In this document: positions 3,264 through 63,936 of the stretch, piece by piece
Layout of the letters: each line of letters opens with the position of its first letter
Position numbering within the stretch: the first letter of the stretch is position 1
Source: Patescibacteria group bacterium
GTDB taxonomy: Bacteria > Patescibacteriota > Patescibacteriia > Magasanikbacterales > GWA2-37-8
Length of the DNA: 64,000 nucleotides
Reading direction: 5' to 3'
Assembly: GCA_004321885.1 (NCBI GenBank)
Contig: SCQK01000014.1
Location: 95,464 to 159,463, forward strand
The notes under the pieces: model-generated
The model's input: the letters and a program-made list of their open reading frames with translations, nothing else
What the model was told of the DNA's origin: nothing
The model's database searches: none
Program-made: the position numbers and the translations under genes

Positions 3264-3989
3264 GTGAAAATATTTATTCGCGACGACGCGGACCAAAGCG
3301 TGTATAACGAAATTTTTAAGCTGGGCGAATATCGCGCCGCGGACAAAGCCATAAAAAACGCGCGTGAACCCGTTATAGACGTCGGCGCGCACGCCGGCTT
3401 TTTTAGTTTGTATTGCCGCGCGCTCAATCCCCAGGTGAAAATTTTCGCCATTGAACCCGAGCCGGAAAATTTTAAGCAGTTACAAAAACACATCGCGGGC
3501 AACAATATTAAGGGCGTGGAGCCGGTGCCAGCCGCTTTGGCCGGCGAGACCGGGGAGAGGGAGTTGATAATATCCAAAGACAATCATAATCATCGGCTCC
3601 GATTACCCCCTCCTCGCCTCCCCCTTATAAAGGGGGAGGACAATTTCCCTCCCCTTGATAAGGGGAGGGCGAGGGAGGGGTACTGGGTCGCGGCTTTTTC
3701 CTTGGGTGATTTTTGCCGGCGTTATAAAATCAAAAACGTCGCTTTGCTCAAAATGGACATAGAAGGAGGAGAGGAAGAAACGTTCAAAAGTGCGAGCGCG
3801 TCTGATTTGGCTATGGTAAAAAACGTAATTTTGGAGTATCATGGTAATAACTTCGCGCCAATAGAACAAAAATTGCGCGAAAACGGTTTTGGAGTACAGA
3901 AATTTCCGTCCAAGTTTGATAATAAAATGGGTTTTTTGTTTGCACGCAATAAAAGGTATGTCTCACCAAGCATGGATAGTGGCGGTTGA
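3264..3989 (+). CDS. FkbM-family SAM-dependent methyltransferase carrying an in-frame palindromic-repeat insertion
   Basis: VIDVGAHAGFFSLY and KMDIEGGE FkbM motifs. Residues ...HRLRLPPPRLPLIKGEDNFPPLDKGRAREGY... are encoded by two tandem family-A hairpin repeats (3600-3685). Confidence 0.7.
   Translation: MKIFIRDDADQSVYNEIFKLGEYRAADKAIKNAREPVIDVGAHAGFFSLYCRALNPQVKIFAIEPEPENFKQLQKHIAGNNIKGVEPVPAALAGETGERELIISKDNHNHRLRLPPPRLPLIKGEDNFPPLDKGRAREGYWVAAFSLGDFCRRYKIKNVALLKMDIEGGEEETFKSASASDLAMVKNVILEYHGNNFAPIEQKLRENGFGVQKFPSKFDNKMGFLFARNKRYVSPSMDSGG
3600..3685. repeat. Family-A GC-rich hairpin repeats (two tandem units) inside FkbM CDS
   Basis: CCTCCCCCTTATAAAGGGGGAGG and CCCTCCCCTTGATAAGGGGAGGG followed by GAGGGAGGGG tail. 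Confidence 0.85.
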
Positions 3990-5283: not shown

Positions 5284-5294
5284 TCGTCAATAGA

Positions 5295-5332
5295 CCCTCT
5301 CCTATTAGGAGAGGGATACAGGGTGGGGTTTG
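5295..5332. repeat. Family-A hairpin repeat (intergenic)
   Basis: CCCTCTCCTATTAGGAGAGGG + ATACAGGGTGGGGTTTG tail. Confidence 0.8.
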
Positions 5333-8003: not shown

Positions 8004-8052
8004 TGTCATTCCAGCCCGCCTTTAGTCCCAGCGAAAGCTGGGATGGAATCCA
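8004..8052. repeat. Family-B repeat variant (TGTCATTCC-hairpin-GGAATCCA)
   Basis: TGTCATTCCAGCCCGCCTTTAGTCCCAGCGAAAGCTGGGATGGAATCCA. Confidence 0.7.
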
Positions 8053-9215: not shown

Positions 9216-9218
9216 CAG

Positions 9219-9252
9219 TCATTCCCCCGACTTAGTCGGGGGAATCCAGTCG
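9219..9252. repeat. Family-B repeat
   Basis: GTCATTCCCCCGACTTAGTCGGGGGAATCCAGTC. Confidence 0.85.
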
Positions 9253-9907: not shown

Positions 9908-9987
9908 CCTCTCCCCTTTACAAGGGGGAGGCTTGTCACCACACCAAAAATTTTGGTGTGGTGACAGAGAGGGGGTAATCCTCTCAC
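9908..9987. repeat. Family-D palindromic repeat (CACACCAAAAATTTTGGTGTG core flanked by CCCCT/AGGGG arms)
   Basis: Near-identical core to 26953..27025; generates an N-terminal ORF extension of the LRR gene. Confidence 0.85.
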
Positions 9988-10232: not shown

Positions 10233-10240
10233 AAATTATT

Positions 10241-10275
10241 GTCATTCCGGTCGCCTGCGGCGGCCGGAATCCAGT
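10241..10275. repeat. Family-B repeat
   Basis: GTCATTCCGGTCGCCTGCGGCGGCCGGAATCCAGT. Confidence 0.85.
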
Positions 10276-10349: not shown

Positions 10350-10353
10350 TAGT

Positions 10354-10383
10354 TGTCATTCCGGACTTGATCCGGAATCCAGC
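10354..10383. repeat. Family-B repeat just downstream of promoter 10322
   Basis: TGTCATTCCGGACTTGATCCGGAATCCAGC. Confidence 0.85.
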
Positions 10384-10444
10384 TCCTTTGAAAATAAATT
10401 CCGGGGTAGCGCTCCGCCAGCCGGCGGAGGTAGCGCAGTTGGCT

Positions 10445-10693
10445 GTGTATACTGTTTACGCTATTTACAATCAAAAAAACGATAAAATTTATATTGGACA
10501 AACAAAAGACATGGCCGAACGATTAAGGTTGCATAATGAAAAAATCCTTCTTGGTTATACTTATAGATTTGATGGAAATTGGAAATTAATTTATAGTGTA
10601 CAGATCGAGAATAGACAAAAAGCTTTACAAAGAGAGAGACAACTTAAAAGTTTTAGAGGCAGAGAATTTATAAAACAATTTATTCCGGGGTAG
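10445..10693 (+). CDS. GIY-YIG nuclease-domain protein (stand-alone, YhbQ/UPF0213-like)
   Basis: VYTVYAIYNQKNDKIYIGQTKDMAERLRLHN is a canonical GIY-YIG motif with Arg and downstream Glu (IENRQKA). GTG start at 10445 with GGAGG 14 nt upstream; the ORF track begins at TTG 10322 inside the promoter. Its stop codon lies inside tRNA-Asn. Confidence 0.65.
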   Translation: MYTVYAIYNQKNDKIYIGQTKDMAERLRLHNEKILLGYTYRFDGNWKLIYSVQIENRQKALQRERQLKSFRGREFIKQFIPG

Positions 10694-10755
10694 CGCAGCG
10701 GTAGCGCAGAGGACTGTTAATCCTTTGGTCGTGGGTTCGAATCCCACCCCCGGAG
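10684..10755 (+). tRNA. tRNA-Asn (anticodon GTT)
   Basis: Cloverleaf by hand: acceptor TCCGGGG/CCCCGGA, D-arm GCGC-AGCGGTA-GCGC, anticodon loop CTGTTAA, T-arm GTGGG-TTCGAAT-CCCAC, discriminator G; no encoded CCA. Confidence 0.85.
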
Positions 10756-10761
10756 CAAAAA

Positions 10762-10888
10762 CAAAAATACTGGTAATATCCAGTATTTTTGCTTTTGCTC
10801 GGAATACACGAAAAAATACGAACGGATTTGGGCGAATTTTAGGGCGCGGGCGAAATTCCCTCCCCACACCCCTTCCTTTCGCCCGCGA
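10762..10888. repeat. Left terminal inverted repeat of island
   Basis: Reverse complement of 15960..16086; spurious ORFs 10625..10924(-) and 15902..16105(+) share the peptide GRGVGREFRPRPKIRPNPFV because of it. Confidence 0.85.
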
Positions 10889-15959: not shown

Positions 15960-16086
15960 CGCGGGCGGAAGGAAGGGGTGTGGGGAGGGAATTCCGCCCG
16001 CGCCCTAAAATTCGCCCAAATCCGTTCGTATCTTTTCATAAGTCCCGAGCAAAAGTAAAAATACTGGTAATATCCAGTATTTTTTG
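15960..16086. repeat. Right terminal inverted repeat of island
   Basis: See left IR. Confidence 0.85.
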
Positions 16087-18270: not shown

Positions 18271-19110
18271 ATGAAAAAAATCATTGTCTCTTTGCTCGTG
18301 CTGGGAATCGCGGTTTTGGGTTTTGTGTTGTTCAGGGAATTTAGAAAAAATTTCGGGCGCGTGGCCGGGCCCGCGGGACAGACCGGCGAAACCGCCGGGC
18401 CCGAGGCAGGGGCCTACAAAATTTCCGACGCCGCGCTTAAAGAAGACAGCGCGCGTTATGTTATCATCGCCAAGTATCCGCGCCTCTTGGGCTTGTCGCC
18501 TGCGGCCGACAAAAATTTCAATGACGCGATGTTGGCCTTAATCAATCAGAATGTCAGCGATTTTAAGAAAAATGTGGCCGAAACGCCCGACACGCAGGTA
18601 AACAGCAGTCTGGAAACCAACTTTGACATCGTGGAAGAAAATGAAAATTTTGTCAGCATTCTTTTGATTGTTGATTCGTACGTGGCAGGCGCGGCTCATC
18701 CCGCGCGCCGTCTGGCCAGCTTTAATTTTGATTTGGAAAAAGGCGCGGTGTTTGGGCTCAAAGATGTTTTCAAATCCGGCGCGCCATATTTGGAACGGCT
18801 GTCGCAATTCGCGCGCGCCGAGCTTTTAGAGTCCAACAAACAGGAGCCGTTTACCGACGAAGCCACCATCAACGCCGGCACCGAGCCGAAAGAGGAAAAC
18901 TTTCAGGTGATAAATTTTTCCGCGGCTGGCATTGCGATAGTTTTTAATGAATATCAGGTGGCGGCCTACGCGGCCGGGCCGCAAATGGTGGAGATTGATT
19001 ACGAAAGCGTGAAGGATATTTTGAACGAAGAAGGCCCGCTGGCGCTGTTTTTAGCCAAGACCGAGGAGGAAGCGGAGCCGTCGCTGGATTCAGGGTCAAG
19101 CCCGGAATGA
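18271..19110 (+). CDS. Membrane-anchored DUF4163/DUF3298-like (RsiV-like) domain protein
   Basis: N-terminal TM; YQVAAYAAGP and surrounding pattern typical of DUF3298. C-terminal residues SGSSPE plus stop TGA are encoded by a partial family-B repeat. Confidence 0.5.
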   Translation: MKKIIVSLLVLGIAVLGFVLFREFRKNFGRVAGPAGQTGETAGPEAGAYKISDAALKEDSARYVIIAKYPRLLGLSPAADKNFNDAMLALINQNVSDFKKNVAETPDTQVNSSLETNFDIVEENENFVSILLIVDSYVAGAAHPARRLASFNFDLEKGAVFGLKDVFKSGAPYLERLSQFARAELLESNKQEPFTDEATINAGTEPKEENFQVINFSAAGIAIVFNEYQVAAYAAGPQMVEIDYESVKDILNEEGPLALFLAKTEEEAEPSLDSGSSPE

Positions 19111-19139
19111 CAATAAAAATATTTTTTAATAAATAAACT

Positions 19140-19170
19140 GGATTTTCCCGACTTAGTCGGGGGAATGACA
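19140..19170. repeat. Family-B repeat 5 nt upstream of M4 peptidase start
   Basis: GGATTTTCCCGACTTAGTCGGGGGAATGACA; partial copy at 19096..19115 supplies the stop of the upstream gene. Confidence 0.85.
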
Positions 19171-19175
19171 AGTGT

Positions 19176-23055: not shown

Positions 23056-23084
23056 TGGATTCCGGCTCGGGGGCCGGAATGACA
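23056..23084. repeat. Family-B repeat upstream of PAP2 gene
   Basis: TGGATTCCGGCTCGGGGGCCGGAATGACA. Confidence 0.85.
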
Positions 23085-23634: not shown

Positions 23635-23686
23635 ACCCCTCCCTTTAACCCTCCCCTTAATAAGGGGAGGGAGGGGTGGGGTTTGC
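23635..23686. repeat. Family-A hairpin repeat (intergenic)
   Basis: CCCTCCCCTTAATAAGGGGAGGG + AGGGGTGGGGTTTGC, then T-run. Confidence 0.85.
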
Positions 23687-26673: not shown

Positions 26674-26742
26674 GCGCCCTCCTCCCCCTTTTAGAGCCTG
26701 TCCCGAACTTGTTTCGGGAGGGAGGATAGAGGAGGGAGTATG
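26674..26742. repeat. Family-A-like nested hairpin between queH and tsaE
   Basis: CCCTCCTCCCCC...TCCCGAACTTGTTTCGGGA...GGAGGGAG. Confidence 0.7.
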
Positions 26743-27245
26743 TGTATTTTTCTCTTGTTCCCTCCCGCGTATTCAATTCTGACGGTTATTATTTTCGGCC
26801 CTTGGCCGATATTTTTCAAAAGCTCTTTTATTTTCTCCGGCCACTCAATCGCGCAAATCGTATCCGGCCTGCCCAAATAATCCAGCGCGCCGATTTCCAC
26901 AAGTTCGTGCTCATTTTTTAGCCGGTAGGTATCTATATGGACGAATTTTTGTGTCCCCCTGCCCCCACACCAAAATTTTTGGTGTGGGGGCCTGCCCGAG
27001 GGGGACTTTGAGGGGGGTGGGAGCAAGTACACATTCATCAACGCGAACGTCGGACTGGTAATTTTTTCTTTGACGCCCAAGCCGGCGGCAATGCCTTTCA
27101 CCAATGCAGTTTTGCCCGCGCCCAGTTCGCCGTAAAGCAATAAAATATCGCCGCCGCGCAATTTTCGCGCCAAAGCCGCGCCAAACGCAAATGTTTCTTT
27201 TTCGTTTTTCGTGATAATTTTTTGATTGTTTTGACGGGTTGACAT
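26691..27245 (-). CDS. tsaE: tRNA threonylcarbamoyladenosine biosynthesis protein TsaE with in-frame repeat insertion
   Basis: P-loop GELGAGKT, SPTFALMN. Segment LLPPPSKSPSGRPPHQKFWCGGRGTQ is encoded by family-D palindromic repeat 26953..27025. Start at MSTRQ (27245); the ORF track extends to 27320. Confidence 0.8.
   Translation of the reverse strand: MSTRQNNQKIITKNEKETFAFGAALARKLRGGDILLLYGELGAGKTALVKGIAAGLGVKEKITSPTFALMNVYLLPPPSKSPSGRPPHQKFWCGGRGTQKFVHIDTYRLKNEHELVEIGALDYLGRPDTICAIEWPEKIKELLKNIGQGPKIITVRIEYAGGNKRKIHILPPLSSLPKQVRDRL
26953..27025. repeat. Family-D palindromic repeat inside tsaE
   Basis: GTCCCCCTGCCCCCACACCAAAATTTTTGGTGTGGGGGCCTGCCCGAGGGGGAC... Confidence 0.85.
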
Positions 27246-27519
27246 AGAAAAGCGATTACCTGTAATATATAGATGGTGGGCGCGGAGCGGCGGAAAAAAT
27301 GTTCTACAACTTTTTTTCATAGGTTCGCCAATATCTGTTTGGCCCTTGGGTCAAACGTGCGGCTTACCACCTACTATCACGGGACACGTGACGCCGCTTG
27401 CGCGCTTAACCCTTTTTTGATTTTACAGTAAAACTGAAAAAAAGCAACGGGTTATACTGCGTATAGCCCGTTCTCGCTCGGAAACGCAAAATTAAAATTT
27501 TGCGTTTCGCTCGCTCGAA

Positions 27520-27632: not shown

Positions 27633-27634
27633 TA

Positions 27635-27671
27635 CTGGATTCCGGTCGCCTGCGACGACCGGAATGACAAT
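27635..27671. repeat. Family-B repeat
   Basis: CTGGATTCCGGTCGCCTGCGACGACCGGAATGACAA. Confidence 0.85.
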
Positions 27672-31398: not shown

Positions 31399-31427
31399 TG
31401 TCATTCCCGCGAAAGCGGGAATCCAGC
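31399..31427. repeat. Family-B repeat upstream of SPFH gene
   Basis: TGTCATTCCCGCGAAAGCGGGAATCCAGC. Confidence 0.85.
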
Positions 31428-31431
31428 AAAT

Positions 31432-32882: not shown

Positions 32883-33002
32883 TTTTTCAGGAGTGTTCCG
32901 GCGCGCTAGTAGCGAGGCGCTGGGCAGAGTGGGGAAAGGAGGAAATCTCGCTACCACTCAAAAGCAGCTTTTTACAAGGCTGTTTTTGTTTTTTCCATGC
33001 TC

Positions 33003-33060: not shown

Positions 33061-33095
33061 GCTGGATTCCCCCGTACTTAGTCGGGGGAATGACA
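33061..33095. repeat. Family-B repeat in hrcA 5' UTR
   Basis: GCTGGATTCCCCCGTACTTAGTCGGGGGAATGACA. Confidence 0.85.
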
Positions 33096-34432: not shown

Positions 34433-34489
34433 TTCTCCCTTAATTAGGGGGAGAACGCCAAACAGTTCCCTCCCCTAAAAGGGGAGGGT
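34433..34489. repeat. Two family-A hairpins upstream of dnaK
   Basis: TTCTCCCTTAATTAGGGGGAGAA and CCCTCCCCTAAAAGGGGAGGG. Confidence 0.8.
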
Positions 34490-38151: not shown

Positions 38152-38157
38152 TAATCG

Positions 38158-38252
38158 CTGGCTCCATAGTTGCGAAGCACTATGGAGCTCAAATGTTGGT
38201 CAGCAATTCGGCTCCACAGCCCCGACTGGGTCGGGGACTATGGAGCCAGCCA
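38158..38252. repeat. Family-C REP-like hairpins (2 units) after dnaJ
   Basis: GGCTCCATAGTTGCGAAGCACTATGGAGC and GGCTCCACAGCCCCGACTGGGTCGGGGACTATGGAGCC. Confidence 0.85.
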
Positions 38253-38273
38253 TAGGATAACACTGGATTCCCC

Positions 38274-38295
38274 CGACTAAGTCGGGGGAATGACA
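38274..38295. repeat. Family-B repeat 2 nt upstream of ECF sigma start
   Basis: TGGATTCCCCCGACTAAGTCGGGGGAATGACA. Confidence 0.85.
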
Positions 38296-38297
38296 AC

Positions 38298-38795: not shown

Positions 38796-38798
38796 ATA

Positions 38799-38842
38799 CC
38801 CCTCCCGCGCCCTCCCCTTAAAAAAGGGGAGGGGCAAACTAA
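38799..38842. repeat. Family-A hairpin repeat between ECF sigma and anti-sigma-like gene
   Basis: CCTCCCCTTAAAAAAGGGGAGG. Confidence 0.8.
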
Positions 38843-38844
38843 AT

Positions 38845-39540
38845 ATGAATCTCAAAGTTAGGTACAATTTATGGAAAGAACAGCGCCGGATGTCGCCGAA
38901 TTTTAAGTTTAAGCGCGCGCTTTTGGCGCGTGTGCTGGATTCTCGCCTGCGCGGGAATGACAGCGAGGACTGGCGCGGCAAACACCCTATTAGATTTTTT
39001 GCCTATTTCACCCACTTGCGCTGGGGCGTGGTTATGGCCAGTGTTTTGTTGTTGGCTTTGCTGGCCACCGGCGCATACGCCTACAACAGCGACGAAGTTA
39101 CCGAGGGTACTGTTTTGTATCCGGTAAAACAAAAGCTGGAAGAAGTGGAGGAACTGACCAAGCGCACGCCCGAAGCCAAGGCGGATTTTTATCTGAAACA
39201 GATTAAGCGGCGCGAAGCCGAGGAGGCGGCGCTGGAGCGCCGGCGCGCCAGGATTGAAAAAGCTAAAAATCGGCTGGACATGCTGGAAAAAAACATAGAA
39301 GCGTCCGAGGAAAAAGCCGAGCGCGTGCAGACCCAGCTTGAAGAAGTAAATAAAATATTGAGCGGCAAAAACAGCGCGCAGAACAAAGAATTGCGCCAGC
39401 GCGTGCAGGCGATTTTGGAAGCCAAAAAAATAAAAAGAGAGCGCGAATTGGACAAAAAAGTGGAAATGATACGGCGGAAAGCGGAAATGATTGACAAGTT
39501 ATACGCCAGCTTGGAAGAGGAAATGGAAAAAGAAGAATAA
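38845..39540 (+). CDS. Putative anti-sigma factor: single-TM protein with long charged coiled coil
   Basis: Directly follows the ECF sigma; TM MASVLLLALLATGAYAY; rest is K/E/R-rich helical. Assignment by context. Confidence 0.4.
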   Translation: MNLKVRYNLWKEQRRMSPNFKFKRALLARVLDSRLRGNDSEDWRGKHPIRFFAYFTHLRWGVVMASVLLLALLATGAYAYNSDEVTEGTVLYPVKQKLEEVEELTKRTPEAKADFYLKQIKRREAEEAALERRRARIEKAKNRLDMLEKNIEASEEKAERVQTQLEEVNKILSGKNSAQNKELRQRVQAILEAKKIKRERELDKKVEMIRRKAEMIDKLYASLEEEMEKEE

Positions 39541-44931: not shown

Positions 44932-44969
44932 TCCCTCCCCTATAAGAGGAGGGAGAGGGTGGGGTTCGC
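44932..44969. repeat. Family-A hairpin repeat
   Basis: TCCCTCCCCTATAAGAGGAGGGAGAGGGTGGGGTTCGC. Confidence 0.8.
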
Positions 44970-48748: not shown

Positions 48749-48764
48749 GCGCCGGGATGGGTCG

Positions 48765-48872
48765 CTGGCTCCACAGTCCCCGACAAAGTCGGGGCTGTGG
48801 AGCCGAAATGCTGGCCAACATTATGGCTCCACAGCCTCGGTCGCCTGCGGCGACCTCGGACTATGGAGCCAG
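48765..48872. repeat. REP-like hairpin array (family C), upstream flank of RAYT
   Basis: GGCTCCACAGTCCCCGACAAAGTCGGGGCTGTGGAGCC and GGCTCCACAGCC-TCGGTCGCCTGCGGCGACC-TCGGACTATGGAGCC; nested palindromes. Confidence 0.8.
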
Positions 48873-48913
48873 CCGATGAACAGTCAGCGATAAAAATATT
48901 CTTCTATAAACTT

Positions 48914-49459
48914 ATGCCGACGCCGCGGATAAATGAAGCGTATGAAAATTTGACGCATTTTTTGACGATAACGGTAGTAGAATGGATTGATATTTTTACA
49001 AAGAGAGAATATTTTGAGGCGATAGCAGAGAGTTTAAAATTTTGCAGAGAAAATAAAGGATTGTTGCTCTACGAATATGTGATAATGACCAATCATTTGC
49101 ATTTAATCGTAAGGGCCAAAGAAGGTTTCAAATTATCTCAAATAATCAGTGATTTTAAAAAATACACCGCAAGAGAAATCTGTAAATTATTGGCAACAGA
49201 TAATCGCAGGTATATTTTAAATCTGCTCAAAAATAGTTTTTCCAAAAAAGAGGGTTATCAAAATCAACTTTGGCAAAGGGAAAATTACGCCGAGCCGATG
49301 ACTTCCGGTAAATTTTTGGATGAAAAAATAACCTATATTTACAATAATCCAGTAAAAAAGGGTTTTGTGGCAAAGTCGGAGGACTGGCTTTATTCATCGG
49401 CAAGAAATAGGATATTGGGTGACCATTCAATATTGCGAGTGGATGATTTGGAAGGTTAG
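48914..49459 (+). CDS. REP-associated tyrosine transposase (RAYT; IS200/Y1 HUH-family)
   Basis: HUH motif in YVIMTNHLHLIVRA; catalytic Tyr candidate in FKKYTAREI; size about 180 aa; flanked on both sides by REP-like hairpin arrays. Start could be 48863 (inside the REP). Confidence 0.65.
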   Translation: MPTPRINEAYENLTHFLTITVVEWIDIFTKREYFEAIAESLKFCRENKGLLLYEYVIMTNHLHLIVRAKEGFKLSQIISDFKKYTAREICKLLATDNRRYILNLLKNSFSKKEGYQNQLWQRENYAEPMTSGKFLDEKITYIYNNPVKKGFVAKSEDWLYSSARNRILGDHSILRVDDLEG

Positions 49460-49690
49460 CTCGCTGGCTGCACGCTGGCTCCATAGTTTTTCGCGAAGCG
49501 AAAACTGTGGAGCCAGAATGCCAGCACTATGGCTCCACAGCCCCGACTTTGTCGGGGACTATGGAGCCAGCGACAACGCCAAGATGCCGGACAGCACTAT
49601 GGCTCCACAGCCCCGACTTTGTCGGGGACTATGGAGCCAGCGATAACAAAATGCCAGCACTGCGGCAGCGATTGCTATGGAGCCAGCGAC
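49460..49690. repeat. REP-like hairpin array (family C, 5-6 units), downstream flank of RAYT
   Basis: Repeated GGCTCCA(C/T)AGCCCCGACTTTGTCGGGGACTATGGAGCC units, with variant inner loops (e.g. TTTTTCGCGAAGCGAAAA). Confidence 0.85.
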
Positions 49691-54095: not shown

Positions 54096-54111
54096 ATTAA
54101 GCGCGCGGCCG

Positions 54112-54189
54112 GATGTGTTCTCGCTTTCCTCGGCCGCGAGGCCTCGGCCATCCCGACTGAGTCGGGATAAGGCGCTACGAACACATCCA
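54112..54189. repeat. 78-bp inverted-repeat element, left copy, flanking glycosylation cassette
   Basis: Reverse complement of 57577..57653 (about 70/78 matches). Internally partly palindromic (GGATGTGTT...AACACATCC ends; core CCCGACTGAGTCGGG). Confidence 0.85.
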
Positions 54190-55142: not shown

Positions 55143-55511
55143 ATGTTGATACAAATTTTTCTGGTTATCTTCTTCGTTTTCGCCATGGTGAAAGTGATCG
55201 GGCGATGGCGCGGAGGAGAGTTAAGCGCTCGCGCGGCGGTTTTGTGGATTTTGTTTTGGCTGGCTGGCGTCGTAGTCGTGATTTTGCCCCACAGCACGTC
55301 ATACTTCGCCAATTTGTTGGGCGTGGGGCGCGGCGTTGATTTGGCTGTTTATTTGTCCGTGGCGCTATTGTTTTTCGCGGTGTTTAGATTGACAGTAAGA
55401 ATAGAGCGGTTGAATAAAGACATAACGAAGTTGACGAGGAGGACGGCGCTAGAAGAAAAAGAATTACCCCTCTCTAACTCTCCCCTTATAAAGGGGAGAG
55501 AGAACCTATGA
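55143..55511 (+). CDS. Small membrane protein (DUF2304-like, commonly paired with GT2)
   Basis: 3 TM helices; the C-terminal 10 aa are encoded by a family-A repeat. Confidence 0.5.
   Translation: MLIQIFLVIFFVFAMVKVIGRWRGGELSARAAVLWILFWLAGVVVVILPHSTSYFANLLGVGRGVDLAVYLSVALLFFAVFRLTVRIERLNKDITKLTRRTALEEKELPLSNSPLIKGRENL
55466..55506. repeat. Family-A hairpin encoding C-terminus of DUF2304-like ORF
   Basis: CCCCTCTCTAACTCTCCCCTTATAAAGGGGAGAGAGAACC. Confidence 0.8.
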
Positions 55512-56731
55512 AAATAGCTCACGTTATTTCAACGTTTCCGCCGCGAATCGGCGGAATGGGAAAAGTGTGTTTTGAAGAGGCGAAGGAATTGGCCAAGCGC
55601 GGGCACGATGTGACCGTGTTTACTTTGAGGTATGCGGATACCCCCTCCTCTGTCCCCCCCCTAAGAGGGGGAGGAATAAATGTGGTGCGAATGTGGCCGG
55701 TGGTGAGGGCAGGCGACGCGGGTTGGGCGCCGCAATTATTTTGGAAGTTGAAAAATTTTGACATCGTTCATTTACACTATCCGTTTTACGGCGGGGCGCA
55801 TTGCGTGTTGTTGGCCCGGCTTTTTCGGAAGCAAAAATATGTGCTCACGTATCACATGGACGCTCGGCCCGCAGGATTGTTAAAAAAATTTTTTCAAAAA
55901 ATTTACGATTTTATTTTCGCGAAAGCGATTTTGAGGAACGCGGAGAAAATGATTGTGATGGATAGGAAGTATTTTGAGGCCAGCACAAATACGACCGTTG
56001 GTTCCATAGTTCCCGACTCAGTCCGGACTGTGGAACCCAATGCCGGCACTTTGGCTCCACAGCCCCGACGTAAAGTCGGGGACTATGGAGCCAGCGTGAT
56101 AGAAATCGCGCCGGGCGTGGATGCGGAGATCTACCAGCCGTCAGGTGGCTGGCCTCAAGGGGGCCACTTCGGGGCCGGGAAAAAAACAATTTTGTTCGCG
56201 GCCAATCCCATGCCGTTGAAGCGGTTGGATTTGTTACTGAAGGCGTTGCGGTTGATGAACGAAGATGTTTCGCTTTTAGTGGTGGGAGGCGGTTACGCGC
56301 TTGAGGATTACAAAAAAATGGCCGAGGAGCTGGGGATAAAAAACAAAGTGGTTTTCGCCGGCCGGTGCGACAGCGAACAAAAAATGGCCGAGTATTATAA
56401 CTCCGCTTCTTGTCTGGCCATACCATCGCAATCCGAATCGTTTTCTTTGTCAGCGATTGAAGCAATGGCTTGCGGTTGCCCGGTGGTGGCGCGTGATATG
56501 CCGGCTATGGCCGGACGCGTGACACACGGAGTTGATGGTTGGCTGGTAAACAGCGATAAGCCCGAGGATTGGGCGCGCGTTCTTCGCGAAGCTGTGGGAC
56601 TTACCGCGGAAGAGCGCGAGCGCATAGGCGCGGCGGGCAGAAAAAAAGTCGTGGAAAATTATGATTGGAATAGACATGTGGATGAATTGGAGAAAGTGTA
56701 CAGTATGGATTCCGGCTCAAGGCCGGAATGA
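55508..56731 (+). CDS. GT4-family glycosyltransferase with two in-frame repeat insertions
   Basis: ESFSLSAIEAMACGCPVVA is the GT4 E-x7-E region. Family-A repeat (55640..55677) encodes DTPSSVPPLRGGG; family-C REP pair (56000..56096) encodes ...SIVPDSVRTVEPNAGTLAPQPRRKVGDYGAS... Confidence 0.8.
   Translation: MKIAHVISTFPPRIGGMGKVCFEEAKELAKRGHDVTVFTLRYADTPSSVPPLRGGGINVVRMWPVVRAGDAGWAPQLFWKLKNFDIVHLHYPFYGGAHCVLLARLFRKQKYVLTYHMDARPAGLLKKFFQKIYDFIFAKAILRNAEKMIVMDRKYFEASTNTTVGSIVPDSVRTVEPNAGTLAPQPRRKVGDYGASVIEIAPGVDAEIYQPSGGWPQGGHFGAGKKTILFAANPMPLKRLDLLLKALRLMNEDVSLLVVGGGYALEDYKKMAEELGIKNKVVFAGRCDSEQKMAEYYNSASCLAIPSQSESFSLSAIEAMACGCPVVARDMPAMAGRVTHGVDGWLVNSDKPEDWARVLREAVGLTAEERERIGAAGRKKVVENYDWNRHVDELEKVYSMDSGSRPE
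55640..55677. repeat. Family-A hairpin inserted in-frame in GT4 gene
   Basis: CCCCCTCCTCTGTCCCCCCCTAAGAGGGGGAGG. Confidence 0.8.
56000..56096. repeat. Family-C REP-like hairpins (2 units) inserted in-frame in GT4 gene
   Basis: GGTTCCATAGTTCCCGACTCAGTCCGGACTGTGGAACC and GGCTCCACAGCCCCGACGTAAAGTCGGGGACTATGGAGCC. Confidence 0.85.
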
Positions 56732-56733
56732 CA
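56706..56733. repeat. Family-B repeat providing the stop (TGA) of GT4 and the start (ATG) of MTase
   Basis: TGGATTCCGGCTCAAGGCCGGAATGACA; ATGA within GGAATGACA. Confidence 0.85.
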
Positions 56734-57555
56734 ATGATGTGTATGGCGTTTGATTACGAACAATCAATTTGGGGAGCGGGCGAGGCTACTTTGCACTACG
56801 CGGACCCGGCCAGTTTTCGTTTGCTTCAGGCGCTGGACGCTTTGGCGCGTGTGAAAGAAGGCCGGGTGCTGGAAGTAGGTTGCGGGGCCGGACAATTTAT
56901 TCGCGCCATCAAAAGAGCGCGGCCGGAATTGGAATGTTGCGGGTGTGATATCAGCGCTGCGGCTGTAGCCAAAGCAAAAGAAACCGGCGAAGGCGTGCGT
57001 TACGACCAAAGCCTCGAAGTGGAACTTCCATATGTGAATGTTTGTTTTGACGCTGTGCTGGTGTTTGACGTTTTGGAACACGCGCAGAACACAGACGCTT
57101 TGTTGGCCGAGATAAATCGCGTGCTGGCGCCGGGCGGGGTGTTTTATTGCTTTGTGCCGTGCGAAGGCGACTGGCTGTCGCTCTGGAATTTGCTTAGAAA
57201 ATTAAACATCAAACCCGACTTAACAAAAAAATACGCTGGCCACATAAATTATTTTTCCCGTTGCTCGCTGTATGATTTGCTGAAAAAAAATAATTTCCGC
57301 TTAAAACAACTTCGCTACAGTGAACACAGTCTGGGACAAATACTTGGCGTACTGACATTTATTTTAATGGCTCGGGCCGCCAAAAAACAAAATATCTCGC
57401 AGATGAACAATGAAGCGTTTTTCGCGCGAATGAAACATGGCTCCAAATTTTATTCCGCGCTAAAAAAAGTAGTGAATTTTTTGGTAAATTTGGAGTCAGT
57501 GCTTTTGTGCCGCGTTCCATCGCCGAATGTGCATGTAATTTCCATTAAGAAATAG
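56728..57555 (+). CDS. Class I SAM-dependent methyltransferase
   Basis: VLEVGCGAGQF motif I, VLVFDVLEH, LAPGGVFY; start/stop ATGA overlap with the GT4 gene, supplied by a family-B repeat. Confidence 0.8.
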   Translation: MTMMCMAFDYEQSIWGAGEATLHYADPASFRLLQALDALARVKEGRVLEVGCGAGQFIRAIKRARPELECCGCDISAAAVAKAKETGEGVRYDQSLEVELPYVNVCFDAVLVFDVLEHAQNTDALLAEINRVLAPGGVFYCFVPCEGDWLSLWNLLRKLNIKPDLTKKYAGHINYFSRCSLYDLLKKNNFRLKQLRYSEHSLGQILGVLTFILMARAAKKQNISQMNNEAFFARMKHGSKFYSALKKVVNFLVNLESVLLCRVPSPNVHVISIKK

Positions 57556-57576: not shown

Positions 57577-57653
57577 GGATGTGTTTGAACGCCTTATCCC
57601 GACTCAGTCGGGATGGCCGAGGCCTCGCGGCCGAGGGAAGTGAGAACACATCC
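57577..57653. repeat. 78-bp inverted-repeat element, right copy
   Basis: See 54112..54189. Confidence 0.85.
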
Positions 57654-57679
57654 GACCGTCGCGAGCGATTCAACGAGTG

Positions 57680-57711
57680 TGGATTCCCCCGACTAAGTCG
57701 GGGGAATGACA
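57680..57711. repeat. Family-B repeat
   Basis: TGGATTCCCCCGACTAAGTCGGGGGAATGACA. Confidence 0.85.
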
Positions 57712-57717
57712 AGTGAT

Positions 57718-61252: not shown

Positions 61253-61313
61253 CTTAGTTTTGTGGGCCTCTGTCCGCCTTTGGCGGAAGGGGAGAGATAG
61301 AGAGGGGTAAATT

Positions 61314-61826: not shown

Positions 61827-63701
61827 TTATCTTTTCAATACAGCCAAATACGTCTCGGCCGGTATGTCAATTTTTCCGTGCGAAAGCAGGCGTCTCTTAC
61901 CTTTTTTCTGCTTTTGCAAAAGTTTCATCTTGCGCGTGTAATCGCCGCCGCTCATTTTGGCCAGCACGTCTTTGCGTAAAGCCGACAGCCGTTCGGCCGC
62001 GATAATTTTTCCGCCCACCGCCGCCTGGATTTTAAGCACGAATTGTTGGCGGGGAAGCGAATCACGGAGTGACTCCACGACTTTCTTCCCGGCCTTGTAG
62101 GCCTCGTCGCGCCAGACCAGCGTGGCCAGGGCCTCCACCGGTTCTTCGGCCACCAGCACGTCCAGTTTTACCACATCGGTTGGTTCGTAATCAATGTATT
62201 CGTAGTTCATGGAAGCGTAACCCGACGTGACGGTTTTAAGTTTATCATAAAAGTCGGTAATAAGCGAGGCCAGGGGAATTTGGTAATGCAACATGGCGCG
62301 CTGGTCGGCTCCGGCGCTTAAATATTCGGTGTTGACATAGCGCCCTTTGCGTTCGGACACCAGTCCCATGATATTGCCTACGAAGTCCTTGGGCGTGATA
62401 ATATCCAAGTCCATCCATGGTTCGGTGATGGATTTTATTTCCGCCGGCGAGGGCATTTCCTGGGGGCCGCGGATTAAAATATTTTGCCCGTTGGTTTTTT
62501 CGGCTTTGTACACCACGCTCGGCACGGTGATGATAATTTCCAAACCGTGTTCGCGCTTGAGTCGCTCCTGAAAAATATCCAGATGCAAGAGACCCAAGAA
62601 ACCGCAGCGAAAACCGAATCCCAGCGCCTGCGAATGCTCGGGTTCGTAGGTCAAAGAAGAATCGCTTAAGCGCAGTTTGTCTATGGCGTCGCGCAGTTCG
62701 CCGTAGGCATCGCCTTCTTTGGGAAAAATGCCGGCGAATACCATGGGCTTTACCTCCTTGTATCCCGGCAACGGTGTCTCGCTCATTGGGCATTGCTCAT
62801 TGGGATTTGGGATTTTCGCGATGGTGTCGCCCACGCGACAGTCGCGCACTTCTTTGAGTCCCGTGACCACGTAGCCGATCTCACCGTTCAAGAGTTTTTC
62901 CGCCGCTTTGAATTTGGGCGTGTAGTATCCCAATTCCAATACCTCGGCCGGCGTTTTGGTGGTCATCAAAAATATTTTGTCGCCTTTTTTCAATTCGCCG
63001 TCGGACACGCGTACTGAAGCCACCACGCCTTTGTATTCGTTGAACTCCGAATCAAAAATCAGGGAGCGCGTCGGTTTGCCGATGTTGTCCTTCGGCGCCG
63101 GCACGCGCTCTATCACGGCGGTTAAGATTTCTTCCACGCCCTGGCCGGTTTTGGCCGAAGCCAAAATTATTTCCTCTTCTTTACAGCCCAACAGGTGGAT
63201 TATTTCTTCTTTGGTTTTTTGCACGTTGGCGATGGGCATGTCAATCTTGTTGATGACCGGAATGATGGTCAGATTTTGCTCAATCGCCAGATACAAGTTG
63301 CCTATGGTTTGCGCCTGCACGCCTTGGGTGGCGTCCACGAGCAAAATAGCGCCTTCCACGGCGGCCAAAGAACGCGAAACCTCGTAGTTAAAATCCACAT
63401 GCCCGGGGGTGTCTATCAGGTTCAGGATGTATTCACTGTCATTGCGAGCGCCCGCAGGGCGCGTGGCAATCTCATTCTTGTTTGGGATTGCTTCGCTCTG
63501 CTCGCAATGACACTTGTACGACATGCGCACGGGCGTGAGTTTGATGGTGATGCCGCGTTCGCGTTCCAGGTCCATGCTGTCAAGCAGTTGCGCTTTCATG
63601 TCACGCTTGTTCACCGTGCCCGTGAATTCTAAAAATCTATCCGCCAATGTGGATTTTCCATGGTCAACATGACTTATGATGCAAAAATTTCTGATGTTCA
63701 T
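61827..63701 (-). CDS. lepA: Elongation factor 4 (LepA) with in-frame palindromic-repeat insertion in the G domain
   Basis: NFCIISHVDHGKSTL, DTPGHVDFNYEV, C-terminal LepA domain. About 27 aa (CHCEQSEAIPNKNEIATRPAGARNDSE) inserted between ...RMSYK and YILNLIDTPGH, encoded by two opposed family-B repeats 63427..63501. Start at MNIRNF (63701). Confidence 0.9.
   Translation of the reverse strand: MNIRNFCIISHVDHGKSTLADRFLEFTGTVNKRDMKAQLLDSMDLERERGITIKLTPVRMSYKCHCEQSEAIPNKNEIATRPAGARNDSEYILNLIDTPGHVDFNYEVSRSLAAVEGAILLVDATQGVQAQTIGNLYLAIEQNLTIIPVINKIDMPIANVQKTKEEIIHLLGCKEEEIILASAKTGQGVEEILTAVIERVPAPKDNIGKPTRSLIFDSEFNEYKGVVASVRVSDGELKKGDKIFLMTTKTPAEVLELGYYTPKFKAAEKLLNGEIGYVVTGLKEVRDCRVGDTIAKIPNPNEQCPMSETPLPGYKEVKPMVFAGIFPKEGDAYGELRDAIDKLRLSDSSLTYEPEHSQALGFGFRCGFLGLLHLDIFQERLKREHGLEIIITVPSVVYKAEKTNGQNILIRGPQEMPSPAEIKSITEPWMDLDIITPKDFVGNIMGLVSERKGRYVNTEYLSAGADQRAMLHYQIPLASLITDFYDKLKTVTSGYASMNYEYIDYEPTDVVKLDVLVAEEPVEALATLVWRDEAYKAGKKVVESLRDSLPRQQFVLKIQAAVGGKIIAAERLSALRKDVLAKMSGGDYTRKMKLLQKQKKGKRRLLSHGKIDIPAETYLAVLKR
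63427..63501. repeat. Two opposed family-B-like repeats inside lepA
   Basis: TGTCATTGCGAGCGCCCGCAGGGCGCGTGGCAATC and GGGATTGCTTCGCTCTGCTCGCAATGACA. Confidence 0.8.
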
Positions 63702-63936
63702 ACCCAAAATTCTATCACAGAGCATTACAATATTCAATGGCTGGCAAAAACAAAAACAGCCTTTGAAAAAGCTGCTTTTGTAATAGTGCGAACCTCCCTG
63801 TTCCTCCAAATCTTGCCCGGCGGCTTCGCACAGCGCGCGCCGGGATGAATGTGCGATTGATTACGCTGGGAGCGTGGAGGTGGTGTGTACCCCGTATACT
63901 GTACACATATTCTCGTTTCGCCTATCATAAAGGGAT

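What the first reader, a model, noticed from the sequence alone, without database searches (positions are those of the whole stretch)
63427..63501. RPE-like behaviour: palindromic repeats inserted in-frame inside essential and conserved genes (lepA, tsaE, FkbM-MTase, GT4)
Seen directly: lepA carries a 27-aa insertion (CHCEQSEAIPNKNEIATRPAGARNDSE) exactly where two opposed family-B repeats lie. It falls in the loop that in E. coli LepA is ...[20 protein letters not shown]. tsaE carries LLPPPSKSPSGRPPHQKFWCGGRGTQ from a family-D repeat (26953-27025). The FkbM methyltransferase carries two tandem family-A hairpins (3600-3685). The GT4 gene carries one family-A and two family-C units (55640-55677, 56000-56096). 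All preserve the reading frame. The same family-D repeat also yields the HQNFWCG peptide in a spurious N-terminal extension of the LRR gene. In-frame insertion of palindromic elements into ORFs is the hallmark of Rickettsia palindromic elements (RPEs, established). Seeing it with at least four unrelated repeat families in one 64-kb window is unusual.
Basis: partly seen in the sequence, partly recalled or inferred. Interest (0 to 1): 0.7.

Follow-up and report, generated by a model that had tools for sequence, protein, structure and literature searches.

The report
In-frame palindromic repeats inside essential genes
Small hairpin-forming mobile DNA repeats sit in frame in surface loops of four intact genes of a Patescibacteria genome; this kind of event is known from Rickettsia and other bacteria, but here it is in a new phylum and hits the same protein loop repeatedly.

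Summary
lepA, tsaE, an FkbM methyltransferase and a GT4 glycosyltransferase each carry a palindromic repeat unit or inverted dimer, in frame and without stop codons. Their Pfam domains continue on both sides.

Orthologue alignments show four inserts are lineage-specific additions of about 16-27 residues. The fifth, the family-A unit in GT4, adds only 3-5. AlphaFold models put the LepA and TsaE inserts at low-confidence beta-hairpin tips.

The repeats belong to known kinds:
- Family B (the lepA insert) is a TGTC/CGTC-tagged REP. This is the dRS3/NTS/"Ssn-related motif" superfamily, which the literature equates with Rickettsia RPE-4/-6. A gene for its partner, a small GIY-YIG nuclease, lies in the window.
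- Family C is a REP family whose RAYT transposase gene also lies in the window, flanked by inverted C arrays.

So "RPE-like" is right. In-frame intragenic REP dimers were already catalogued in several phyla (Di Nocera 2013).

Two things are new: the phylum, and a hot spot. Among the 120 closest LepA homologues, 27 carry different palindromic inserts at the same hairpin tip, scattered over the tree. TsaE shows 29 of 120 in one loop.

Verdict: new member of a known kind, moderate interest.

The parts
63435..63512 (-). 78-nt in-frame insert in lepA: inverted dimer of TGTC-tagged REP units (family B, GCGAG subtype), TGTC heads outward, 10-12-nt spacer; encodes CHCEQSEAIPNKNEIATRPAGARNDS
61827..63701 (-). 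lepA (elongation factor 4), intact, 624 aa
   Evidence: (100% to an NCBI protein named elongation factor 4)
26952..27023 (-). in-frame insert in tsaE from the nested family-D palindrome (core CCACACCAAAAATTTTGGTGTGG)
26691..27320 (-). tsaE, intact (Pfam TsaE in two stretches around the insert)
3604..3682 (+). family-A inverted dimer (TACCCCCTCC..hairpin / hairpin..GGGAGGGGTA) in frame in the FkbM methyltransferase
3264..3989 (+). FkbM-type methyltransferase; Methyltransf_21 domain spans the insert in one stretch
55639..55675 (+). single family-A unit in a variable loop of GT4 (weak case, net +3-5 aa)
56000..56096 (+). family-C inverted dimer (REPIN-like) in frame in GT4, just before the C-terminal domain
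56706..56734 (-). family-B unit that supplies the C-terminal tail MDSGSRPE and the TGA stop of GT4, and the first ATG of the next ORF
55508..56731 (+). GT4 glycosyltransferase, intact
48914..49459 (+). RAYT (REP-associated tyrosine transposase) gene; HUH = HLH, Tyr motif YIYNNPVKKG; start codon inferred (the ORF is open from 48797)
   Evidence: only PDB hit is 4ER8 TnpA-REP; NF047646, 96.8 bits against a cutoff of 80
48761..48873 (.). family-C REP array upstream of the RAYT gene
   Evidence: (I5: 55 nt, 93% complementary to 49520-49574)
49473..49690 (.). family-C REP array downstream of the RAYT gene (70-nt period, BIME-like)
38155..38250 (.). intergenic family-C dimer
10448..10693 (+). small GIY-YIG nuclease gene, Ssn-like; likely partner of family B
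   Evidence: hhalign 97% to REP-flanked GIY-YIG proteins
10239..10275 (+). family-B unit upstream of the GIY-YIG gene
10353..10383 (+). family-B unit upstream of the GIY-YIG gene
31399..31428 (+). intergenic family-B unit; matches the Neisseria NTS consensus with 1 mismatch
8005..8050 (+). intergenic family-B unit
9218..9250 (+). intergenic family-B unit
19083..19113 (-). family-B unit forming the C-terminal tail LDSGSSPE and the stop of the DUF3298 gene
19137..19171 (-). intergenic family-B unit
23058..23083 (-). family-B unit at the 5' end of the PAP2 ORF (coding or not depends on the true start)
27634..27670 (-). intergenic family-B unit
33062..33095 (-). intergenic family-B unit
38262..38296 (-). 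intergenic family-B unit
38933..38962 (-). family-B unit in frame 88 nt into the DUF5667 ORF (VLDSRLRGNDS); possible sixth in-frame insertion, not checked against orthologues
57680..57712 (-). intergenic family-B unit
9909..9961 (.). family-A hairpin followed by a family-D palindrome upstream of the LRR gene (inside the spurious N-terminal ORF extension)
5294..5315 (.). intergenic family-A hairpin
23651..23669 (.). intergenic family-A hairpin
34467..34488 (.). intergenic family-A hairpin
38797..38833 (+). intergenic family-A unit
44932..44953 (.). intergenic family-A hairpin
55465..55501 (+). family-A unit just upstream of the GT4 start
61287..61309 (-). intergenic family-A unit

Best explanation
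The lepA insert is a gene-less inverted dimer of a TGTC/CGTC-tagged repetitive palindrome (REP). It belongs to the superfamily known as dRS3/NTS in Neisseria, as "Ssn-related motifs" across bacteria, and as RPE-4/-6 in Rickettsia. The other inserts are dimers or units of three further palindrome families of this Patescibacteria genome.

Shown:
- The genome carries many copies of these elements, mostly between genes.
- The window encodes two enzymes of the kinds known to partner such repeats. One is a RAYT (HUH/Y1 transposase) flanked by inverted family-C arrays. The other is a small GIY-YIG nuclease of the Ssn type next to family-B units.
- In other genomes the same GTCATTGCGAG units bracket such a GIY-YIG gene. 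The lepA dimer therefore looks like the gene-less form of that unit.

Inferred:
- The elements are copied as hairpin-forming single-stranded DNA by these enzymes and land at many places.
- Selection removes disruptive insertions.
- The survivors inside genes have a length that is a multiple of three, are stop-free in the host frame, and sit at beta-hairpin tips or inter-domain loops. There they add 16-27 disordered residues without harming the fold.

Shown: in Magasanikbacteria-like lineages the LepA beta2-beta3 hairpin tip and one TsaE hairpin have been hit many times independently by different families.

Open: whether that hot spot reflects structural tolerance alone or DNA-level targeting.
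For: Real repeats
- 13 family-B pattern matches against 0.27 expected.
- 6 family-B units match the published SRM degenerate motif, against 0.19 expected.
- The NTS consensus is matched with 1 mismatch.
- Families A, C and D are multi-copy.

Lineage-specific and in frame
- The empty site is TACAAA|GAATAC in L004, against a 78-nt insert in the window.
- Solved LepA and TsaE structures have no counterpart for about 20 and about 23 residues respectively.
- Orthologue alignments agree.

Loops
- LepA insert: pLDDT <50 for residues 68-86, between strands 58-64 and 89-96.
- TsaE insert: between strands 95-100 and 124-130, with pLDDT falling to about 48.

Independent, recurrent events
- 27 of 120 LepA homologues have different inserts at one loop. 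They are scattered on the NJ tree and their nearest neighbours are mostly empty.
- Seven were confirmed at DNA level as TGTC-type units or dimers, in two reading frames.
- Two genes 90% identical in DNA carry unrelated inserts.
- Relative L005 has the identical 24-mer of its lepA insert in an intergenic dimer, plus at least 6 more dimers in 21.8 kb. Empty-site relatives have 0-1 units.

Partner enzymes
- RAYT: NCBIfam NF047646 at 96.8 bits against a cutoff of 80; the only PDB hit is 4ER8 TnpA-REP; flanking arms are 93% complementary.
- GIY-YIG is the only recurrent neighbour family in 120 loci from many phyla. It lies between inverted units in L032, L079 and L089.
- Reciprocally, 64 of 80 GIY-YIG loci have GTCATTGCGAG units, 44 of 80 have B-like units on both sides, and 34 of 80 have the canonical orientation.
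- Published association and ssDNA-specific cleavage: Chenal et al. 2025.

Selection filter: 15 of 31 element loci lie in the roughly 9% of the window that is non-coding, and 5 of 31 lie deep inside genes.
Against: - No transposition has been shown for CGTC/SRM repeats. Chenal et al. only note that the NTS-ssnA-NTS layout resembles an insertion sequence.
- The two lepA units do not fit the published SRM degenerate motif. They are a GCGAG subtype, and no GIY-YIG gene flanked by that subtype is in the window.
- Family C lacks the canonical GTAG tag; it has CTGTGG/CTATGG instead.
- No partner enzyme was found for families A and D.
- No target-site duplication or common target motif was seen.
- The GIY-YIG query set was drawn from REP-adjacent genes, which biases the reciprocal test.
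- Retention of the inserts in the mature proteins is not shown.
- The hot spot is not explained by the model as it stands.
Confidence: 0.8

Rival explanations
1. The palindromes spread not by enzyme-driven transposition but by recombination or replication errors. Candidates are template switching or illegitimate recombination at hairpins, and gene conversion between copies. The nearby RAYT and GIY-YIG genes would be bystanders or domesticated for other roles.
For: - No target-site duplication or target motif was found.
- Inner hairpins are swapped between families B and C.
- Two 90%-identical lepA genes carry different inserts of similar length at one codon, as in-situ replacement would give.
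- Ssn in Neisseria modulates transformation, and mobility has not been shown.
Against: - The layout REP - GIY-YIG gene - inverted REP recurs in 34 of 80 loci.
- A RAYT flanked by inverted REPs is the layout of mobile units.
- IS200/IS605-type ssDNA transposition leaves no duplication in any case (established knowledge).
Confidence: 0.12
2. The inserts are ordinary fast-evolving loop expansions of these proteins, ancestral or functional, that merely look palindromic.
For: The loops vary in length in many homologues.
Against: - The inserted DNA matches dispersed intergenic families of the same genome.
- The empty site is precise.
- Inserts differ between near neighbours on the tree.
- Model confidence is low and there is no conservation.
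Confidence: 0.03
3. The host genes are pseudogenes, or the inserts are metagenome-assembly artefacts at repeats.
For: The sequence is a metagenome-assembled genome, and repeats can mislead assemblers.
Against: - All four ORFs are full length, with domains on both sides of the insert.
- The same kind of insert at the same lepA codon appears in independent assemblies from different samples and sources.
- One such protein was seen on several contigs.
Confidence: 0.03
4. The inserts are removed after transcription or translation, so the mature proteins lack them.
For: The insert RNAs fold into very stable hairpins.
Against: - No intron or intein features are present, and the inserts are only 72-97 nt.
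- Rfam finds nothing there.
- According to Di Nocera et al., R. conorii proteins carrying RPE-1 at the N-terminus are expressed in vivo.
Confidence: 0.02

Closest known systems
Rickettsia palindromic elements (RPEs; Ogata et al. 2000, 2002, as summarised in PMC10969869 and PMC3733652)
   Same: - Palindromic repeats inserted in frame into unrelated, functional genes at positions compatible with the fold.
- Several families occur in one small genome.
- By Di Nocera's classification, RPE-6 and RPE-4 are CGTC-1 and CGTC-4 REPs, the superfamily of family B here.
   Different: - The host is Patescibacteria, not Rickettsia.
- The units are 25-45 nt and the dimers 75-100 nt, whereas the classical RPE-1 is about 150 bp.
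- No direct sequence comparison with RPE consensus sequences was made here.
CGTC- and GTAG-tagged REPs with intragenic copies (Di Nocera et al. 2013, PMC3733652)
   Same: - TGTC/CGTC tag, a stem beginning with AT, a GAAA-type loop and a CCA tail.
- Inverted dimers predominate.
- Intragenic dimers encode 20-30 aa.
- REP ends supply stop codons.
- Copies at ORF 5' ends may be non-coding.
   Different: - That survey lists five phyla for CGTC repeats and does not include Patescibacteria.
- In the passages read, it does not report repeated hits at one orthologous loop.
NTS / Ssn-related motifs and the SsnA GIY-YIG ssDNA nuclease (Chenal et al. 2025, PMC11893778)
   Same: - A window copy matches the NTS consensus with one mismatch.
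- Six units fit the SRM degenerate motif.
- A small single-domain GIY-YIG gene sits next to the units.
- The repeat-gene-repeat layout was recovered independently here.
   Different: - The paper contains none of the terms 'intragenic', 'in-frame' or 'Patescibacteria'.
- The lepA units are a GCGAG subtype outside the published SRM motif.
- The nuclease activity of the window protein is untested.
REPIN-RAYT systems (Bertels & Rainey 2011; Nunvar et al. 2010; E. coli TnpA-REP structure 4ER8)
   Same: - A RAYT gene flanked by inverted REP arrays.
- The dispersed unit is an inverted REP dimer.
- Copies are mostly extragenic.
   Different: - The tag is CTGTGG/CTATGG rather than GTAG.
- One dimer lies in frame inside a gene.
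- The host is a CPR bacterium.
Coxiella burnetii QMITEs and intragenic ERIC/BOX elements
   Same: Small non-autonomous repeats that can fuse in frame with host ORFs.
   Different: Those are MITEs with terminal inverted repeats, and usually with target-site duplications. No duplication was seen here.

Membership tests
CGTC-tagged REP / dRS3 / NTS / Ssn-related motif (for family B) | Tetranucleotide tag CGTC (or TGTC/CCTC) at one end | tested here: met
   All 13 pattern matches start with GTCATT. Where the preceding base is shown in the sequences it is T (A at 9217). The feature comes from PMC3733652.
CGTC-tagged REP / dRS3 / NTS / Ssn-related motif (for family B) | Stem of 8-9 bp beginning with AT, loop of 4-5 nt, unpaired tail CCA | tested here: met
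   The copy at 31399 reads TGTC ATTCCCGC GAAA GCGGGAAT CCAG. Other copies keep the AT start and the CCA tail but have longer stems or other loops.
CGTC-tagged REP / dRS3 / NTS / Ssn-related motif (for family B) | Fits the NTS consensus CGTCATTCCCGCGMAVGCGGGAATCYRG or the SRM degenerate motif | tested here: inconclusive
   Two copies match the NTS consensus with 1-2 mismatches, against 0 expected. Six B units match the SRM motif, against 0.19 expected. The two units inside lepA (GCGAG subtype) do not match the SRM motif.
CGTC-tagged REP / dRS3 / NTS / Ssn-related motif (for family B) | Inverted dimers predominate | tested here: met
   The lepA insert and the inserts of four relatives are inverted dimers. 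Most hits in 120 genomic loci are dimers. Within the window, most intergenic B copies are single units.
CGTC-tagged REP / dRS3 / NTS / Ssn-related motif (for family B) | Associated gene for a small single-domain GIY-YIG nuclease (SsnA, cd10448) flanked by the repeats | tested here: met
   The window GIY-YIG gene (10448-10693) has two B units within 210 nt upstream. hhalign gives 97% to REP-flanked GIY-YIG proteins. Of 80 related loci, 44 have units on both sides. Assignment to cd10448 itself was not tested.
CGTC-tagged REP / dRS3 / NTS / Ssn-related motif (for family B) | Cleavage of the repeat as single-stranded DNA by the nuclease | not testable with these tools
   Biochemical feature.
REP/REPIN-RAYT system (for family C) | RAYT gene with HUH and catalytic Tyr motifs | tested here: met
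   NF047646 scores 96.8 bits against a cutoff of 80. The HLH and YIYNNPVKKG motifs are present. The only PDB hit is 4ER8.
REP/REPIN-RAYT system (for family C) | RAYT gene flanked by REPs in inverted orientation | tested here: met
   Arms 48761-48815 and 49520-49574 are 55 nt long and 93% complementary.
REP/REPIN-RAYT system (for family C) | Conserved GTAG tag at one end of the REP | tested here: not met
   The units carry CTGTGGAGCC / CTATGGAGCC and have no GTAG.
REP/REPIN-RAYT system (for family C) | Dispersed copies are inverted dimers (REPINs), mostly extragenic | tested here: met
   Dimers lie at 38155-38250 (intergenic) and 56000-56096 (inside GT4). Only 4 loci fall in the window, so genome-wide abundance is not tested.
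Rickettsia palindromic elements (RPE) | In-frame insertion into ORFs that stay functional, at surface positions | tested here: met
Rickettsia palindromic elements (RPE) | Sequence membership in RPE-1 to RPE-10 | not tested
   No RPE consensus sequence was available. The link B = CGTC-1 = RPE-6 rests on PMC3733652 together with the NTS/dRS3 match.
MITE | Terminal inverted repeats plus a target-site duplication | tested here: not met
   The dimers have inverted ends TGTCATT/AATGACA, but no duplication appears at the lepA junctions.

The most novel reading that the evidence does not exclude
The tips of one LepA beta-hairpin and one TsaE beta-hairpin are preferred landing sites for hairpin-forming REP dimers across Magasanikbacteria-like CPR bacteria. 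Gain, loss and in-situ replacement occur fast enough that genes 90% identical in DNA differ in their insert. This would mean one of two things. Either there is a DNA-level targeting mechanism for REP integration inside coding sequence, or there is selection for variable surface loops on essential translation and tRNA-modification proteins in these episymbionts.
Probability: 0.2. Interest if true: 0.65.

Novelty: new member of a known kind. Interest (0 to 1): 0.4.

Why it matters
It extends "protein-coding palindromes" from Rickettsia and a few other lineages to the Candidate Phyla Radiation, where genomes are small and intergenic space is scarce.

It also places three things side by side in one 64-kb stretch:
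- two REP systems, one RAYT-linked and one GIY-YIG/Ssn-linked;
- their likely enzyme genes;
- their in-frame insertions in essential genes.

The recurrent hits at one LepA loop and one TsaE loop give a natural series of independent insertions. That series could be used to ask how REP dimers integrate and how much extra loop an essential protein tolerates.

On the practical side, such inserts inflate protein lengths, create spurious ORF extensions, and can mislead annotation and phylogenetic marker alignments of CPR genomes.

Tried and rejected
- **Rfam on the whole window:** only two tRNAs, nothing at the inserts.
- **RAYT near family-B units:** none found in 120 genomic loci, so RAYT is not the partner of family B there.
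- **Target-site duplication or shared target motif at the lepA junctions:** none convincing. There are only weak resemblances between the R-M codons (CGNATG) and the REP head GGAATGACA, and I do not rely on them.
- **"Stop-free in all frames" as a special property:** units have 2-5 of 6 frames open, which is unremarkable for GC-rich 30-100-mers.
- **The GT4 family-A unit as a clear insertion:** not supported, since it adds only +3-5 aa and its hairpin has z -0.8.
- **Locus search with the six-sequence GIY-YIG alignment:** failed because no block was conserved enough. It was repeated with four sequences.
- **Literature searches:** nothing found on Patescibacteria plus REP or on GIY-YIG plus COG2827.
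Full report
**Source and host genes**

The window comes from a Patescibacteria MAG close to Candidatus Magasanikbacteria. Its LepA, TsaE and GT4 proteins are 100% identical to NCBI proteins from a 159,463-bp contig.

The four host genes are intact:
- lepA, 61827-63701 (minus strand): GTP_EFTU, D2, EFG_C and LepA_C domains.
- tsaE, 26691-27320 (minus strand): the TsaE domain, matched in two stretches.
- FkbM methyltransferase, 3264-3989: Methyltransf_21 in one stretch across the insert.
- GT4, 55508-56731: Glyco_transf_4 plus Glycos_transf_1.

**Observation**

The lepA translation contains VRMSYK-CHCEQSEAIPNKNEIATRPAGARNDS-EYILNLIDTPGH.
- The closest insert-free relative (L004) reads TACAAA|GAATAC at this point. 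The window has TACAAG, then 78 nt, then GAATAC, which places the insert at 63435-63512.
- The insert is TGTCATTGCGAGC..GCAATCC, a spacer of 10-12 nt, then GAGATTGC..GCTCGCAATGACA. This is an inverted dimer.
- As RNA it folds at -42.8 kcal/mol (z = -6.8).

The other inserts:
- The tsaE insert is a nested palindrome (z = -3.4).
- The FkbM insert is an inverted family-A dimer (z = -6.3).
- The second GT4 insert is an inverted family-C dimer (z = -9.1).
- The first GT4 unit is a small hairpin that is not significant on its own (z = -0.8).

**Are the inserts lineage-specific?**

- *LepA.* The solved Aquifex LepA aligns as residues 2-64 and 85-200 of the query, so about 20 residues have no counterpart.
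- *TsaE.* Thermotoga TsaE has one residue where the window protein has about 23. The loop is 45 aa, against a median of 29 in 119 homologues.
- *GT4.* The family-C dimer has no counterpart in the other 119 listed homologues; only P0300 carries an unrelated 14-aa insert at that position. The family-A unit lies in a loop that varies in all homologues and adds only 3-5 aa.
- *FkbM.* The loop after HNHRL is 29 aa, against 10-16 in homologues. The nearest homologue carries a different, family-B-type dimer in the same loop.

**Structure**

AlphaFold2 models with 79-sequence alignments were made for LepA and TsaE.
- The LepA insert lies between strands 58-64 and 89-96, with pLDDT below 50 for residues 68-86.
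- The TsaE insert lies between strands 95-100 and 124-130, with pLDDT near 48-69 while its neighbours exceed 87.
- Both inserts are beta-hairpin tips.

**What the repeats are: family B**

Family B has the form (T)GTCATT-SS-stem/loop-SS-AATCCAG. It gives 13 matches in the window against 0.27 expected.
- The copy at 31399 matches the Neisseria NTS consensus CGTCATTCCCGCGMAVGCGGGAATCYRG with one mismatch.
- Six units fit the published degenerate "Ssn-related motif", against 0.19 expected.
- These are the CGTC-tagged REPs of Di Nocera et al. 2013: a tag often changed to TGTC, a stem beginning with AT, a loop of 4-5 nt, a CCA tail, and mostly inverted dimers.
- That paper equates CGTC-1 with Neisseria dRS3 and with R. 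conorii RPE-6, and CGTC-4 with RPE-4.

**The GCGAG subtype and the GIY-YIG partner**

- The hits span Proteobacteria, Chloroflexota, Bacteroidota, Cyanobacteria, Firmicutes, Planctomycetota, Spirochaetes and several CPR groups.
- Most hits are inverted dimers.

Unbiased clustering of neighbouring ORFs found a single recurrent family, a roughly 90-aa GIY-YIG protein. In three loci this gene lies between two inverted units.

The reciprocal search gave the same picture:
- Of 80 metagenomic loci encoding this protein, 64 carry GTCATTGCGAG units.
- 44 have B-like units on both sides, and 34 have the canonical orientation.

This reproduces the association published by Chenal et al. 2025. They showed that SsnA is an ssDNA-specific nuclease cutting next to NTS, and they noted that the NTS-ssnA-NTS layout looks like an insertion sequence.

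The window has such a gene at 10448-10693, with two family-B units upstream.

**What the repeats are: families C, A and D**

Family C flanks, in inverted orientation (55-nt arms, 93% complementary), an ORF that passes the NCBIfam model for REP-associated tyrosine transposases (96.8 bits against a cutoff of 80).
- That ORF has HUH and Tyr motifs, and its only PDB relative is E. coli TnpA-REP, 4ER8.
- Family C is therefore a RAYT-associated REP, although its tag is CTGTGG/CTATGG rather than GTAG.

No partner enzyme was identified for families A and D.

Families B and C share inner hairpins, so the four families are not fully independent.

**Distribution in the window**

Of 31 element loci:
- 15 lie strictly between ORFs, although only about 9% of the window is non-coding.
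- 11 touch gene ends. There they supply C-terminal tails and TGA stops (GT4, the DUF3298 gene), sit in ORF 5' extensions (the LRR, GIY-YIG, RAYT and PAP2 genes), or, at 38933-38962, lie in frame 88 nt inside the DUF5667 ORF.
- 5 lie deep inside genes.

This is the pattern Di Nocera et al. described for REP-rich genomes.

**Hot spot**

Among the 120 closest LepA homologues, 27 carry inserts of 4-37 aa at the same hairpin tip. Only two inserts occur anywhere else in the protein.
- The inserts differ from one another, are scattered over a neighbour-joining tree, and usually have an insert-free nearest neighbour.
- At DNA level, seven are TGTC-type units or dimers. They use two reading frames and positions two codons apart, so they are separate events.
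- Others derive from unrelated palindrome families.
- Two lepA genes 90% identical in DNA carry unrelated inserts of similar length at the same codon.
- A relative whose lepA holds a dimer has the same 24-mer in an intergenic dimer, and many more dimers nearby. Relatives with an empty site have 0-1 units in 10-22 kb.
- TsaE shows the same behaviour, with 29 of 120 homologues carrying inserts in one loop.

I found no target-site duplication and no shared target motif. Whether this is structural tolerance or targeting stays open.

**Mechanism**

Shown:
- The elements are multi-copy.
- Their likely partner enzymes are encoded nearby.
- The inserts are derived, in frame, and located in disordered loops.
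- The same sites have been hit repeatedly.

Inferred:
- The elements are mobilised as ssDNA hairpins by RAYT (family C) and by a GIY-YIG nuclease (family B).
- Selection then leaves only non-disruptive copies.

The elements are moderately ORF-compatible, with 2-5 of 6 frames open. This is not exceptional.

**Comparison and novelty**

In-frame palindromic inserts are established for Rickettsia RPEs and for GTAG/CGTC REPs in several species. The REP-RAYT and SRM-Ssn partnerships are also published.
- The Ssn paper contains none of the terms 'Patescibacteria', 'intragenic' or 'in-frame'.
- Di Nocera et al. list five phyla for CGTC repeats, without Patescibacteria.
- My library search found nothing on REPs in Patescibacteria.

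The finding is therefore a new member of a known kind. The recurrent LepA and TsaE hot spots are the part worth following up.

Noticed in passing
window 10402-10756: The first 14 nt of tRNA-Asn (TTCCGGGGTAGCGC, 10683-10696) are repeated at 10402-10415, just upstream of the small GIY-YIG ORF. The GIY-YIG cassette looks inserted at the 5' end of the tRNA gene, with that end duplicated.
   Followed up: partly
window 10763-10887 and 15960-16084: A 125-nt inverted repeat (90%) brackets a roughly 5-kb low-GC island (37% against about 50%) next to tRNA-Asn. The island holds a Dam-like methyltransferase, an ECF sigma factor and unannotated ORFs. It is probably an integrated element.
   Followed up: partly
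window 54106-54174 and 57590-57658: A 69-nt inverted repeat (96%) brackets the GT2-GT4-methyltransferase cluster. Each arm ends in a family-B-like hairpin, CATCCCGACTGAGTCGGGAT.
   Followed up: no
window 56706-56734, 19083-19113, 57680-57712: The family-B head GGAATGACAA supplies the TGA stop of GT4 and of the DUF3298 gene. It also supplies the first in-frame ATG of ORFs 56728 and 57706, so annotated gene ends here are shaped by the repeats.
   Followed up: partly
window 9218, 38262, 57680 (B) against 48778, 49541, 49611 (C); 10239, 27634 (B) against 48838 (C): The same inner hairpins (CCCCGACTTNGTCGGGG and GGTCGCCTGCGGCG) occur inside the different outer frames of families B and C. This suggests nesting or module exchange between REP families.
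   Followed up: no
window 38933-38962: A family-B unit lies in frame (VLDSRLRGNDS) between the N-terminal segment and the predicted membrane helix of the DUF5667 protein. It is a possible sixth in-frame insertion, not checked against orthologues.
   Followed up: no
window 32959-32997 and 63742-63780: A shared 39-45-nt element (ACAAAAGCAGCTTTTT.CAAAGGCTGTTTTTGTTTTT) sits just upstream of promoter-like -35/-10 pairs, one of them in front of lepA.
   Followed up: no
L001/L002 (lepA of two relatives); P0096, P0112: Two lepA genes 90% identical in DNA carry unrelated inserts at the same codon. P0096 has a second palindrome-derived insert (PPLKKGGHGEPPLFK) at another LepA site.
   Followed up: partly
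TsaE homologues P0126, P0134, P0142, P0146, P0187, P0224: A second recurrent insert (IRQRRTRLG-type peptide) lies in another TsaE loop, near query residue 170.
   Followed up: no
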